A DNA stretch of 64,000 nt, taken from Eledone cirrhosa. Lineage: Eukaryota. Position 1 is the stretch's first letter. Every line of letters begins with the position of its first letter. This document shows, in pieces, positions 3,064 to 63,064 of this stretch. The notes beneath the pieces were generated by a model. It did no database searches and was not told where the DNA came from. It saw only the letters and a program-made list of their open reading frames with translations. The translations under genes were made by a program, and so were the position numbers. The stretch covers positions 365,180,001 through 365,244,000 of the forward strand of contig OZ024743.1 of assembly GCA_964016885.1 (NCBI GenBank). The letters run 5' to 3'.

Positions 3064-3192
3064 AGTTTTAATATAGATGAGATTCTACAGTTCTAGTCCT
3101 GTAGAATCTCATCTATATTACAACTTTTATACTCTGCTATGTATTGAGTACCTTACTTACTGTGGTTACCTCCGATTCAACGCGGAATAACG
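3064..3192 (+). mobile_element. Family A mini-element (fold-back at HHR stem III) between (TA)n tracts
   Basis: 22-bp perfect arms 3069-3090/3099-3120 around loop TTCTAGTC; tail TATTGAGTACCTTACTTACTGTGGTT shared with copies at 29670, 30320 (rc), 32761, 32948. Confidence 0.8.
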
Positions 3193-3269
3193 TATATATA
3201 TATATATATATATATATATATATATATATATATATATATATATATATATATATATATATATATATATAT

Positions 3270-4078
3270 AAATATATTATATATAGAGTTATAAACTTTT
3301 ACAATTAAATAGCTCAAAGAAAGGAATATTTTTGAACCGTGTAATACAAATGAATATATGATAGGGAGAAACACTGATACAAGTATACATGTGTTTGCAT
3401 TGCAAATGACCAAGTTAGCTAGGTTGAAAAATATTAATTAAAATAATACGGTTTGCCTGTCTCGATTTAAAAATAATAAATCAATAAAAACAAACCTTTA
3501 TTGGCAATAGCCGTGATACCTGGATACATTTAAAATTTTACATTTTAAATTTGTTTCGCAACAATTAAGTGAAAGTTCCTATTTCTGTGCTCTTCTGCAG
3601 GTATCCAGAAATTCGTAAGTTTCACTTCAAAATACTTAAGAAGACTGAGAGAAATGTGTTGTTGAACGCACATGTGTCGCCGCGCCTAGCACATCCTATA
3701 CTCGTGCCGCTAAAAATAGCAGTCGGTTTTATGGGACTAAAAATTAGCTCAACGTATGGAGCCGAGAATATTATATATAGAGTTATAAACTCAAATAGTC
3801 TTTTACAATTAAATAGCTCAATTTCTGGATACCTGCAGAAATAGGAACTTTCACTTAATTGTGCGAAACAAATTTAAAATTTAAAATTAAAAATTTGTCC
3901 AGGTATCACGGCTATTGCCAATATAGGTTTGTTTTTATTGATTTATTATTTTTAAATCGAGACAGGAAAACCGTATTATTTTAATTAGTATTTTTCAACC
4001 TAGCTAACTTGGTCATTTGCAATGCGAACACATGTATACTTATATCAGTGTTTATCCCTATCATATATTCATTTGTAT
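3270..4078. repeat. (TA)n-flanked fold-back element with ~270-bp inverted arms plus an internal direct repeat
   Basis: 3344-3612 is the reverse complement of 3820-4078 with few mismatches; 3275-3317 is repeated directly at 3769-3820. Confidence 0.85.
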
Positions 4079-4124
4079 ATATATATATATATATATATAT
4101 ATATATTTATCAAATATATATTAA

Positions 4125-5839
4125 CTAGCAGAGGTACCCGGCGTTGCTCGGATATTAAATAGCAGTTGTGTATACCATTTATGTCAATACTTCAGTGCTG
4201 CTTCGAAAACTATACTTTTACCAAATCATCCGCTTTTTCCCAAAGGGGGTTCCTGCCCCAGGGGTCCCCTACCCAATATGTGCCAATTCTGAGAGTTCAC
4301 ATTCATCTGTAGGACAAACGTAGCCCATGTGTCAAGTTTTGTGAAAATCGGTTGCGAACTCCAGAAGTTATGACGTTTTGTTGCATTGCACTGCAGTATT
4401 TCAGTCGACTCCAAGGAAGTGGTTAAAGGGGTTATCTGCCGGGGGCCCTATAATCAATATCTGGAAAAATGACAGTGCCCATGACCATCCGGAGTACATA
4501 AGTAACCTATGTCTTAAGTTTGGTGAAAATACTGTAGAAATGCTAAGATTTATACATACGCGCGTGCGTTCGTGTGTGTGTGTGTGTGTGTGTGTGTGTG
4601 TGTGTGTGTGTGTGTGTGTGTGTGTGTGTGTGTGTGTGTGTGTGTGTGTGTGTGTGTGTGTGTGTGTGTGTATTTGTGTGTGCGTATGTATGTGTATGTC
4701 CGTCGGGGCATACGTATGTACTGGCCTAAATCTTCACTATTTACTTTTACTATTTTAATAACCTCTGTCATTTTCGTTTTCAATTTTATTTACATCATTC
4801 TTAAACTCCGGGGCTGGAAATCATTTTGTTATTTTAAATAGAATATTAGTCTAACGACTCCATTTATACCATAAACTTGGTCTTGTCATTGCATGAAATT
4901 GTTCTTCACGCTCGACACAAAACGATGTATTATCCTCGCTTTTTTCTCGTTCATTGCCAGGGAACGTCTTCACGAACCAAAATATCGTCTTCCTGTTTTC
5001 TTCGCAATTTAAGGGTTTTATTTCTTTTGATGGAAAACAGTGACAGTTTTCGGTTTGGCATTTCGTAAAATGGTACTGCAGAATTGATTTCATAAAACGG
5101 TACTGTATGTTAACAGCGAAAGAACGCTGCGAAAGAAATTGATGAGTTTAACAATTTGTATGAAATTGTAATTAAGACAATGAACATTGAAAGTAGTAGA
5201 ACAGGGGGAAATAACTAACCCCAGTATTAGAACAGGGGGTTTGCAATGTAAGGGTTTTATTTACGGTACTGTATGATCGTTATAGAAGTATTTAAATTTA
5301 ATATACAGCAACTAAAATTGAAAAATGAAAATGAAACGTACTGTAGAAGGCAACAGTTTATTAAGCTGCATTTTCAAACTTGCATATCATCGACATTGCT
5401 CTTTCGCTGTTAATAAACAACGCTTTTCACGTCGCTCCACTTCTCATTATACGCCGTCCAGCCCCAAGTGCATATTTATATTTTTTTTCCTGAAACTGCT
5501 TCTTTATAATAAACTTTCAATAATATTTTTCAAATTATTGGTACTGTATGTTAACAGCGAAAGAACGTTGATGAGTTTAAAAATTTGTATGAAATTGTAA
5601 ATAAGACAAAAGTATTAGAACAGGGGGAAATAACTCACCGAACGCGATAGTAAATAAACCGTTTTGGGGCCCCAGGGACCACATTTTTCAAGTTAAAGAT
5701 TTGAAACCTCGTCTATTTGCTTCCTTGGCACTTTTTACTTCGGTGTGTAAATTTTCATGTCCGTCCGACCACGTCTACTACCATTTAACCGTGCACATCT
5801 GAATTTCAACCACCACCCATTTCACAAATATATATTAGA
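4125..5839 (-). mobile_element. Non-autonomous Helitron
   Basis: Minus strand begins TCTAATATATA (5839) and ends with GC hairpin CCGAGCAACGCCGGG then CTAG (4128-4125), inserted between A and T; internal direct repeats about 5100-5215 and 5540-5636. Confidence 0.75.
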
Positions 5840-61100: not shown

Positions 61101-61281
61101 CAGACGTACAGTAGTATGTATATATATACATACATGCACACATATATATATGCACGTATCGGTTTACCGAACATTTATTATAATGCTCGGTTTGTTTGTT
61201 TGTAAACAAACAAACAGCCCAAATTACGCCGTACAGTGTTTAGGCAACCACGTCACCTTTTTCTTCAACACCGACACAGGA

Positions 61282-61324
61282 ACGATGTACTAGTTTCAAG
61301 CTTATTAGCTATCGTCAGCATCGT
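61282..61324 (-). ncRNA. Type I hammerhead ribozyme (family D)
   Basis: Minus strand: ACGATG-CTGACGA-TAGCT/AATA/AGCTT-GAAA-C(TA)G-TA-CATCGT. Confidence 0.9.
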
Positions 61325-61698
61325 ATACCTTCCTGCCAGATGGTTGAACGTCTGAAAGTATATATTTTCCTTATGCATATTAACGGCTGAGCAGCCTAAT
61401 TTGCATATCGAGTGAGTTCAGTCGGCCGGGCACACCGAAAACGATAAATGGAATAGAATATTATATGAAAATGGATGCAGTAAAAACATGTTAGACCATT
61501 ACTCACGAGAGCTACTCGATACTTGGTGAATATGAAAGGGTCGGGACTCCTACGGCTGAGCTCTTGCCGTTTCAACAGCTAGTTCCGAACGGCAAGCATA
61601 AGAAACTAATATAACTGTGTAAAATTATATATATATATATATATATATATATATATATATATATATATATATATATATATATATATATATATATATAT

Positions 61699-63064
61699 GT
61701 AAAAGGTAAACAGAAATAACAACACAATCAGTCCAGTATATGTAAGGGAATTATTAAGTTAACGCTTGATATAGCAGGAAGAGGGTCTTAACGTTTCGGA
61801 CGCTAGTCCTTCGTCAGAAGAAAGCATGAGAAATAAGATAGACTGAGGGGGCGGGCAGGTTGGAATTGGAAAAAATGTCTTTAGATAGAAAAGATTTGAG
61901 ATTGGGCATATTGAAGTTACTAGGGTGGGAGTGAAAAATAGACGGGTGAGAAGAAGGTGGTGTAAGAAGATTGTAGTAGAGGAAAAGTGGTAGAGAGTCG
62001 TGGAATATTTAAATGCAAGAAGCAAAGAACATTTCAATGATACGAAAGATTTCCTGGTGGAAGTTCAGGTGTACTCCGGGTTGGTGTCCAGTTTCGGAGT
62101 GAAAATCCAATTAGAAAATCCAACGAATTGTGAGAGGTCGACGTAAGCGTTGATATATATATATATATATATATATATATATATATATATATATATATAT
62201 ATATATATATATATATATATATATATATATATGTAAAAGGTACACAGGAATAACAACACAATCGGTACAGTATATGGAAGGGAGATATTAGGTTAACGCT
62301 TGAAATAACGGGAAGAGGGTCTTAACATTTCGGACGCTAGTCCTTCATCAGAAGAAAGAATGAGAAATAAGATAGATTGAGGGGACGGGTGGGTTGGATA
62401 GAAAAGATTTGAGATTGGGCATATTGAAGTTACTAGGGTGGGAGTGAAAAGTAGACGGGTGGAAAGAAGGTGGTGTAAGAAGATTGTAGTAGAGGAAAAG
62501 TGGTAGAGAGTCGTGGAATATTTAAATGCAAGAAGCAAAGAACATTTCAATGATACGAAAGATTTCCTGGTGGAAGTTCAGGTGTACTCCGGGTTGGTGT
62601 CCAGTTTCGGAGTGAAAATCCAATTAGAAAATCCAACGAATTGTGAGAGGTCGACGTAAGCGTTGATATATATATATATATATATATATATATATATATA
62701 TATATATATATATATATATATATATATATGTAAAAGGTACACAGGAATAACAACACAATCGGTACAGTATATGGAAGGGAGATATTAGGTTAACGCTTGA
62801 AATAACGGGAAGAGGGTCTTAACATTTCGGACGCTAGTCCTTCATCAGAAGAAAGAATGAGAAATAAGATAGATTGAGGGGACGGGTGGGTTGGATAGAA
62901 AAGATTTGAGATTGGGCATATTGAAGTTACTAGGGTGGGAGTGAAAAGTAGACGGGTGGAAAGAAGGTGGTGTAAGAAGATTGTAGTAGAGGAAAAGTGG
63001 TAGAGAGTCGTGGAATATTTAAATGCAAGAAGCAAAGAACATTTCAATGATACGAAAGATTTCC
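61699..63064 (-). repeat. Tandem array of ~2.8 units (~500-530 bp), each with a hammerhead and separated by (TA)n
   Basis: HHRs at 61786-61821, 62320-62355 and 62817-62852: TCTT-CTGA(C/T)GA-A-GGAC/TAGC/GTCC-GAAA-(C/T)G-TT-AAGA. Confidence 0.92.

What the first reader, a model, noticed from the sequence alone, without database searches (positions are those of the whole stretch)
3103..61790. Constant ~90-110 nt spacing from predicted cleavage site to the (TA)n junction across unrelated families
Counted by hand (cut site to start of TA tract): 454 (109 nt), 3103 (89), 8038 (96), 19814 (97), 24161 (95), 29629 (92), 32902 (94), 38219 (99), 42083 (91), 61790 (91). Family C is shorter (about 51-52 nt in both copies). 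Sequence downstream of a self-cleavage site should not be on a linear cleaved 3' end. Inference: the template is circular or is jumped end-to-end, and an internal (UA)n about 95 nt past the junction pairs with the genomic (TA)n primer. Alternatively this segment is a length-constrained promoter or RT-binding module.
Basis: partly seen in the sequence, partly recalled or inferred. Interest (0 to 1): 0.72.

Follow-up and report, generated by a model that had tools for sequence, protein, structure and literature searches.

The report
Penelope jumping-gene ends: two start sites
These sites are the tail ends of several families of a known jumping gene (Penelope-like elements) beside TA repeats; the roughly 95-base spacing is real for these copies but not universal, because most families stop at two fixed points of their own, which likely mark where the element's enzyme starts copying its RNA.

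Summary
All ten distances are correct (89-109 nt). The sites are 3' ends of Penelope-like elements (PLEs) with type I hammerhead (HHR) motifs, but from three related groups (Hydra, Neptune, one unplaced), not ten unrelated families. The spacing is not universal: in a blind 1-Mb genome sample 28 of 179 HHR anchors end at +85-110; families end at +17, +50, +140, +155, +215 and so on. Most families have two fixed ends 45-150 nt apart, and 94 of 98 classable head-to-head pairs carry one of each. The list mixes second ends (Hydra) with first ends (Neptune, 454); family C's matching end is +134-145. This is the known PLE 'tail'; internal initiation 85-92 nt past the HHR cut is published for the lizard PLE PAc. 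Circularity is untested. The scan found the two-end pairing before on other DNA of this genome.

The parts
345..2913 (-). 5'-truncated PLE of family 454: RT plus C-terminal GIY-YIG ORF (888-2432 and 2410-2910), 3' UTR, minimal HHR (core 482-454, predicted cut after 454), tail to the first end at 345 (+109)
   Evidence: the family ends at +109/119 and +154/164
3065..3192 (+). family B head-to-head cassette: inverted arm with short end, direct arm (cut 3103, 5' core strand missing) with long end at +89
   Evidence: family ends +22 and +89 (L066; L392)
7942..8311 (-). family D inverted arm: full HHR with long stem II (core near 8116-8122, cut 8038), long end at +96
   Evidence: the only one of 219 D anchors with the 5' core in the pattern searched
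8312..11186 (+). likely the direct part of the same insertion: 5' pLTR (cut 8383) reading through a 7-nt TA run into a decayed Hydra-type ORF, 3' pLTR (cut 11162) with short end at +24
   Evidence: (tblastn 9120-9296); that these are one insertion is inferred
19713..19911 (+). family D cassette: short arm (minus, cut 19730, +17) and long arm (cut 19814, +97); 5' core strand missing
24100..24256 (+). Neptune-type 3' end, HHR core deleted, homologous cut 24161, end at +95
29527..29721 (+). family B cassette: short arm (minus, cut 29544, +17) and long arm (cut 29629, +92)
30271..30465 (.). family B cassette: long arm on minus (cut 30376), short arm on plus (cut 30427, +27 to +38)
32168..32996 (.). 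two family B long ends: minus (cut 32274, +106) and plus (full type I HHR, cut 32902, +94)
   Evidence: one of the two long+long pairs; 628 nt apart, possibly separate insertions
38190..38318 (+). Neptune-type minimal HHR (cut 38219) and tail, end at +99
42050..42174 (+). Neptune-type minimal HHR (cut 42083) and tail, first end at +91; read-through copies carry TATA there
61699..63064 (-). Neptune-type family 61790, ORF-less tandem of about 2.3 units of 497 bp (cuts 62821, 62324, 61790, each +91); the (TA)n tracts at 62153-62232 and 62666-62729 lie inside the element's own sequence
19377..19477 (+). family C2 HHR (cut 19426), first end at +51
24783..24892 (+). family C HHR (cut 24841), first end at +51; the family's second end is +134-145
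60850..60939 (-). family C variant (cut 60887), first end at +37

Best explanation
These sites are 3' ends of Penelope-like retrotransposon copies beside (TA)n, and each family stops at one or two fixed points past its predicted hammerhead cut site, likely because its reverse transcriptase starts inside an uncut (or re-joined) RNA at two set sites, one for each end of the broken TA target. Shown: family-specific double ends, one of each per inverted pair, PLE ORFs behind them, and TA letters in the template at the first end. From published work on PAc: both target strands are cut and extended, initiation is internal at two sites, HHR cleavage is not needed. Inferred: the GIY-YIG nuclease breaks (TA)n; one DNA end primes at the first site, helped by 3-10 nt of UA:TA pairing, the other at the second site with little pairing; the two cDNAs usually stop early and join head to head. 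The start sites are set by the RNA around and between them (a shared tail motif in Hydra families), not by a ruler from the HHR. The ~95-nt value is inherited within the Neptune group (first ends) and within Hydra families B and D (second ends); their agreement is a coincidence.
For: Two ends per family: 454 +109/119 and +154/164 (30 copies: 17, 1 between, 12); D +17 and +97 (58 copies: 30, 24, 4 other); B about +20 and +89-106; C +37-57 and +134-148; E +140-160 and +200-220; 61790 +91 and about +240 (9 of 29 rows). Pairing: of 121 inverted pairs 98 had both arms classed: 94 long+short, 2 short+short, 2 long+long. ORFs: RVT_1 plus GIY-YIG in 454; DKT, RWR and CxCX5C motifs in D and B match the Hydra description; a CX2CxxC linker in the Neptune type. 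TA run of 3 nt or more in the template at the first end in 8 of 9 families against 8% of positions in the same tails. PAc starts at ORF+111-118 with the cut at ORF+26, that is 85-92 nt past the cut. Published Hydra consensus ends lie 30-355 nt past the cut, 10 of 24 at 50 or less, 2 of 24 at 85-110.
Against: Family 42083 showed no second end (31 copies; 19 read-through loci of 500 nt), nor did 38219. Family B has only 1-3 nt of TA at its first end, and PAc initiates without homology in vitro, so pairing is not required. The nine families are not independent and the end is called where TA begins, which favours finding TA, so the binomial value overstates the case. No read-through template was found beyond the second end of B or C. 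Tails do not fold better than shuffles (z from -1.5 to +0.9) and the shared motif is nearly invariant, so a structure is not shown. Part of the loci were fetched with tail-containing queries, and 23 pairs had an unclassed arm.
Confidence: 0.7

Rival explanations
1. One reading: the HHR cuts, the RNA circularises (or is jumped end to end), and an internal (UA)n about 95 nt past the junction pairs with the genomic (TA)n in all families.
For: All copies span the predicted cut intact. Family 61790 has an internal TA run of 9-99 nt at +91 (19 of 29 rows) and unit-like copies bounded by (TA)n on both sides (L328, L331, L336). Family F has 8-10 nt. Exact tandem units exist (3143 bp in L251; 310 bp in L083). 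Circles were proposed for PLEs (PMC4209133).
Against: The spacing is not shared. At the ~95-nt end of D the template has 2-3 nt of TA (7 nt in the 8383 variant), at that of 42083 four. It does not explain two ends or their pairing. PAc uses unprocessed RNA and HHR mutants still insert.
Confidence: 0.12
2. The second (long) end is where a donor copy ended: read-through transcripts pick up (UA)n from the donor's flank and prime there by ordinary pairing, and only the first end is an internal start.
For: Explains why read-through templates have 1-3 nt of TA at second ends but more at first ends and why tail length varies from 45 to about 150 nt between families. Nearly all long-ended copies are followed by (TA)n.
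Against: PAc uses both sites on RNA that extends past them without homology. Second ends are fixed to within 1-2 nt across many copies, which repeated re-priming in flanks would tend to blur.
Confidence: 0.15
3. The HHR-to-end segment is a length-constrained module (promoter or RT-binding fold that includes the HHR) in minimal-HHR PLEs.
For: Neptune-type first ends cluster at about +74 to +105 in the blind sample (9 of 11), 454 at +109/119, PAc at +85-92.
Against: Family 454 tolerates a 10-nt insertion; other short-stem-III HHR families end at +14, +140-220 and +214-231; the Neptune members are homologous, so inheritance suffices.
Confidence: 0.08
4. Inverted arms arise by self-priming on an antisense template, and the tail by nuclease resolution of the intermediate (PMC3846280; PMC8557442).
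For: Head-to-head arms with near-palindromic joints are common; this was the published reading before 2024.
Against: Does not predict TA letters in the sense template at the first end; PAc start sites match genomic ends on a sense RNA.
Confidence: 0.05

Closest known systems
PAc, Poseidon PLE of Anolis carolinensis (Frangieh et al. 2024, PMC11167929; main text read)
   Same: HHR in the pLTR, RT starts inside the RNA 85-92 nt past the cut, two start sites that define the genomic tail, both target strands cut and extended, AT-rich target.
   Different: PAc's tail is 30-40 nt and its starts lack homology to the cut DNA; here tails are 45 to about 150 nt, targets are (TA)n, most first ends have 3-10 nt of TA in the template, and arms pair long with short, whereas PAc showed no strand difference in start site in vitro.
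Hydra-clade PLEs, including Hydra-1_Obim (Craig et al. 2021, PMC8557442; passages, section 11, supplement parts 1-2 of 59)
   Same: Families B and D (and likely C): DKT, RWR and CxCX5C motifs, type I HHR, (TA)n targets, inverted 5'-truncated arm, tail on one end.
   Different: The paper gives a 30-40 bp tail; here 70-95 nt in B, C and D. Its own HHR table implies consensus ends in two groups (30-48 and 88-153 nt past the cut), which the parts read do not discuss.
Neptune-clade PLEs (as described in PMC8557442)
   Same: Families 24161, 38219, 42083, 61790: CX2-5CxxC linker before the GIY-YIG domain, minimal HHR, microsatellite bias.
   Different: Family 61790 carries the target microsatellite inside its own template at the first start site; no inverted arms were seen in the 42083 and 61790 sets.
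Non-LTR retrozymes and the circular-RNA model of PLEs (PMC4209133, main text read; bioRxiv 10.64898/2026.07.22.740005, part 1 of 5)
   Same: ORF-less tandem units with a type I HHR (61.7-63.1 kb here; L083), derived from PLE ends.
   Different: No circular RNA was shown here; the 497-bp unit is an internally deleted Neptune element with (TA)n between units.
Tail on one inverted pLTR in Adineta vaga Penelopes (PMC3846280; passages)
   Same: [quoted passage not shown]
   Different: 31 bp there, read as self-priming; not counted as a strict pairing rule.

Membership tests
EN+ Penelope-like elements | single ORF with RT and C-terminal GIY-YIG endonuclease | tested here: met
   788-aa frame in L251 and window 888-2432: RVT_1 and GIY-YIG above cut-off; RT and GIY-YIG motifs by eye for B, D and the Neptune type, where Pfam gave no hit
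EN+ Penelope-like elements | pLTR from tandem or partial tandem, inverted 5'-truncated arm, one-sided tail | tested here: met
   tandem in L251; 94 of 98 classed pairs long+short
EN+ Penelope-like elements | type I HHR in the pLTR | tested here: met
   7 of the 10 sites keep both core strands and stems; 3103, 19814 and 24161 lack the 5' core
EN+ Penelope-like elements | HHR self-cleavage | not testable with these tools
   needs RNA or an in vitro assay
Hydra clade (families B, C, D) | DKT and RWK-like motifs, CxCX5C linker, (TA)n target | tested here: met
   D: DKT and RWR; B: CxCX5C in the ORF beside the inverted arm of L392 (nested repeats lie between it and the 3' arm); C: Hydra-type RT and EN between its arms in L043
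Hydra clade (families B, C, D) | placement in the RT tree with reference Hydra proteins | not tested
   reference proteins were not available as files
Neptune clade (24161, 38219, 42083, 61790) | CX2-5CxxC linker upstream of GIY-YIG | tested here: met
   L309 shows CX2CxxC before the GIY-YIG motif, upstream of a Neptune-type HHR; seen intact in 1 of the 3 EN frames printed
Penelope/Poseidon or Nematis (family 454) | linker absent (Poseidon) or reduced (Nematis) | tested here: inconclusive
   a CX4C motif lies before the EN; no tree was built
Non-LTR retrozyme (61.7-63.1 kb tandem) | tandem ORF-less units each with a type I HHR | tested here: met
Non-LTR retrozyme (61.7-63.1 kb tandem) | circular RNA made by cleavage and ligation | not testable with these tools
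   no RNA data

The most novel reading that the evidence does not exclude
(TA)n-targeting PLEs insert by asymmetric twin priming: one end of the broken microsatellite pairs, telomerase-like, with a UA patch inside the RNA (grown into a full captured (UA)n in Neptune family 61790, whose units are bounded by it and could cycle as circles), while the other end primes 45-150 nt further 3' without pairing, so every inverted insertion records both start sites.
Probability: 0.3. Interest if true: 0.65.

Novelty: new variant of a known kind. Interest (0 to 1): 0.36.

Why it matters
PLE reverse transcriptases are the closest relatives of telomerase, and how they prime is known from one in vitro system. 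This genome gives nucleotide-exact start sites for about a dozen families in three groups, a pairing rule that the in vitro work did not see, and a natural series of template-primer homology (1 to over 10 nt) at the first site. These make priming directly testable. The headline claim, a universal 95-nt ruler that implies a circular template, does not stand.

Tried and rejected
Rfam scan of the window: 154 matches at E<=1; the 150 listed were nearly all simple-repeat hits to miRNA models and included no hammerhead family. Strict HHR descriptor on the blind sample: 52 hits, none ending at +60-119, but it misses most B, D and Neptune copies, so the census was used instead. RNA: no RNA holder listed for the family 454 pLTR-ORF junction. 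Contigs of three runs of unrecorded kind from one sample show loose (TA)n ends at cut+124 and cut+164/166, but may be the assembly's own sample and are not counted as independent. Pattern search for a read-through template beyond family B's long end: 14 matches, no shared continuation. Folding of tails: no significant structure. Family 32902 gave no rows (its template was too short for the filter) and was handled. Family 42083 second end: not found. Paper searches listed no paper that reports HHR-to-end distances across families, strict long/short pairing counts, or an internal (TA)n at a PLE start site; subscription papers (for example the 2005 and 2006 reviews by Evgen'ev and Arkhipova) were not seen, the supplementary figures of PMC11167929 are pictures (one search found no text), and bioRxiv supplements are closed. 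PMC13282606 and PMC12602865 (passages) had nothing on HHRs or tails. Own-findings searches for the Neptune internal tract found nothing. The host is probably an octopus (genome size and shape, Hydra-1_Obim, earlier notes); this was not tested.
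Full report
Observation. The window is an AT-rich animal sequence full of (TA)n tracts, from a 3.0-Gb genome. Seven sites have both HHR core strands; 3103, 19814 and 24161 lack the CUGANGA strand. In family D the 5' core lies 85 nt upstream behind a long stem II and was found in 1 of 219 anchors; most D arms stop about 30-55 nt upstream of the cut (cut-to-cut distances mostly 58-107).

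What the elements are. Site 454 is the 3' end of a PLE whose ORF lies at 888-2910 on the minus strand (RVT_1 and GIY-YIG); a full tandem with a 3143-bp unit and a 788-aa frame is in L251. Family D (8038, 19814) reads through into an ORF with DKT and RWR motifs, family B (3103, 29629, 32902) lies beside an ORF with a CxCX5C linker, and family C has a similar RT and EN between its arms in L043; these are the Hydra marks of Craig et al. 2021. The tails of B, C and D align on a shared ACTC...GAGT motif shortly after the first end. Sites 24161, 38219, 42083 and 61790 align over HHR and tail, 42083 and 61790 have homologous ORF starts, and an EN with a CX2CxxC linker lies upstream of this HHR type: Neptune. 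So there are three groups, not ten unrelated families.

The spacing is not universal. I took 100 evenly spaced 10-kb stretches. With anchors for 15 families, 28 of 179 ended at +85-110, 64 at 60 or less, 2 at 61-84, 73 above 110 (32 of them tandem units of one family) and 12 had no tract within 300 nt (Neptune-type distances there read 1 nt high). In the window itself 15 of 26 anchors are at +85-110 and 8 at 60 or less. From the published Hydra HHR table I computed cut-to-consensus-end distances of 30-355 nt, 10 of 24 at 50 or less and 2 of 24 at 85-110 (this assumes the table's position includes the 20-nt 5' flank, and curated ends may be trimmed).

Two fixed ends. With queries that stop at most 18 nt past the cut, family 454 ends at +109/119 or +154/164 and family D at +17 or +97. 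B ends near +20 or +89-106, C at +37-57 or +134-148, E at +140-160 or +200-220, 61790 at +91 or about +240. Families 42083 and 38219 showed one end only. Of 121 head-to-head pairs in families B, C, D and 454, 98 had both arms classed: 94 long+short, 2 short+short, 2 long+long; 23 had an unclassed arm. Some loci came from tail-containing queries, which favours long arms but not mixed pairs over long+long.

Is there an internal (UA)n? Copies that run past an end show the template. At first ends the alternating TA run is 4 nt in 454, 4 in 42083 (most of 19 loci), 3 in D, 3-4 in E, 5 in I, about 5 in C, 8-10 in F, 1-3 in B. In 61790, 19 of 29 rows have the element's own tail, then 9-99 nt of TA, then the same continuation; four of them go on into the ORF; most others start at (TA)n after unrelated flank, and one has no TA run. 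The window's tandem at 61.7-63.1 kb is such a case. At second ends the run is 1 nt (454, 61790) or 2-3 nt (D; 7 in the 8383 variant). Runs of 3 or more start at 8% of positions in these tails, but the families are related and ends are called where TA begins, so this is a strong hint and not a clean test.

How it likely works. Frangieh et al. 2024 showed that PAc cuts and extends both target strands, starts inside the RNA at two sites that define the genomic tail (main site ORF+111-118, HHR cut ORF+26, so 85-92 nt past the cut), and does not need HHR cleavage. A tail on only one inverted arm was described earlier. I infer that each end of a break in (TA)n primes one cDNA, one at the first site with some UA:TA pairing and one at the second, and that the two cDNAs join head to head. 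The strict pairing suggests an asymmetric complex, which PAc did not show in vitro. Whether the RNA is uncut and linear or cut and circular cannot be told from DNA; circles were proposed for PLEs, and family 61790 fits them best.

Novelty. Element types, HHRs, (TA)n bias, tail and internal initiation are known. Longer tails, the pairing count and the TA patch at the first site, including a captured microsatellite in one Neptune family, were not found in five paper searches. Earlier notes of this scan report the pairing and the tail motif on other DNA of this genome; I had reached both before reading them, and they are not independent evidence. Verdict: a new variant of a known kind; the headline constant spacing is a selection of family-specific ends; interest 0.36.

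Noticed in passing
window 47160-48974 (-): 604-aa frame with an RVT_1 domain, a non-LTR retrotransposon remnant of R4/Dong-like look (label recalled).
   Followed up: partly
window 26580-27295 (+), 51677-52237 (+), 44698-45765 (+), 29747-30090 (+): Fragments that look like RTE-type RT ends and a restriction-like endonuclease LINE end (labels recalled); the three frames scanned (26798, 44698, 51677) had no Pfam hit.
   Followed up: partly
L083:257-3357 and L089:8606-9707: Tandem arrays of a 310-bp ORF-less unit with a type I HHR (retrozyme-like), each unit with a short internal TA run at about +131; the related family F ends at such a run.
   Followed up: partly
L328, L329, L331, L334, L336, L343, L324 and window 61699-63064: Mini-elements of family 61790 that begin at the internal (TA)n and reach the 3' UTR through different junctions (227-350 nt to the HHR), suggesting repeated independent deletions or template jumps.
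   Followed up: partly
L320: An insertion made only of the ~136-nt segment between the internal (TA)n and the second end of family 61790, with (TA)n on both sides.
   Followed up: no
L252:5516-6059 and 7802-8345; L257:1573-1697: Chimeras between families: a family D tail fused at +52 to the ORF seen beside family B, and a family D end joined to the first end of a 454 arm, suggesting template switching or nested insertion.
   Followed up: no
window 8038-8125 (-): Family D HHR has a stem II region of about 55 nt, and most D arms are truncated inside it.
   Followed up: partly
window 25039 (-); L042, L047, L049, L071, L094: Several HHR families with the U3-A8 core variant.
   Followed up: no
window 3273-4121 and 6740-7380: Long foldback (inverted-repeat) stretches without an HHR anchor in my census.
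   Followed up: no
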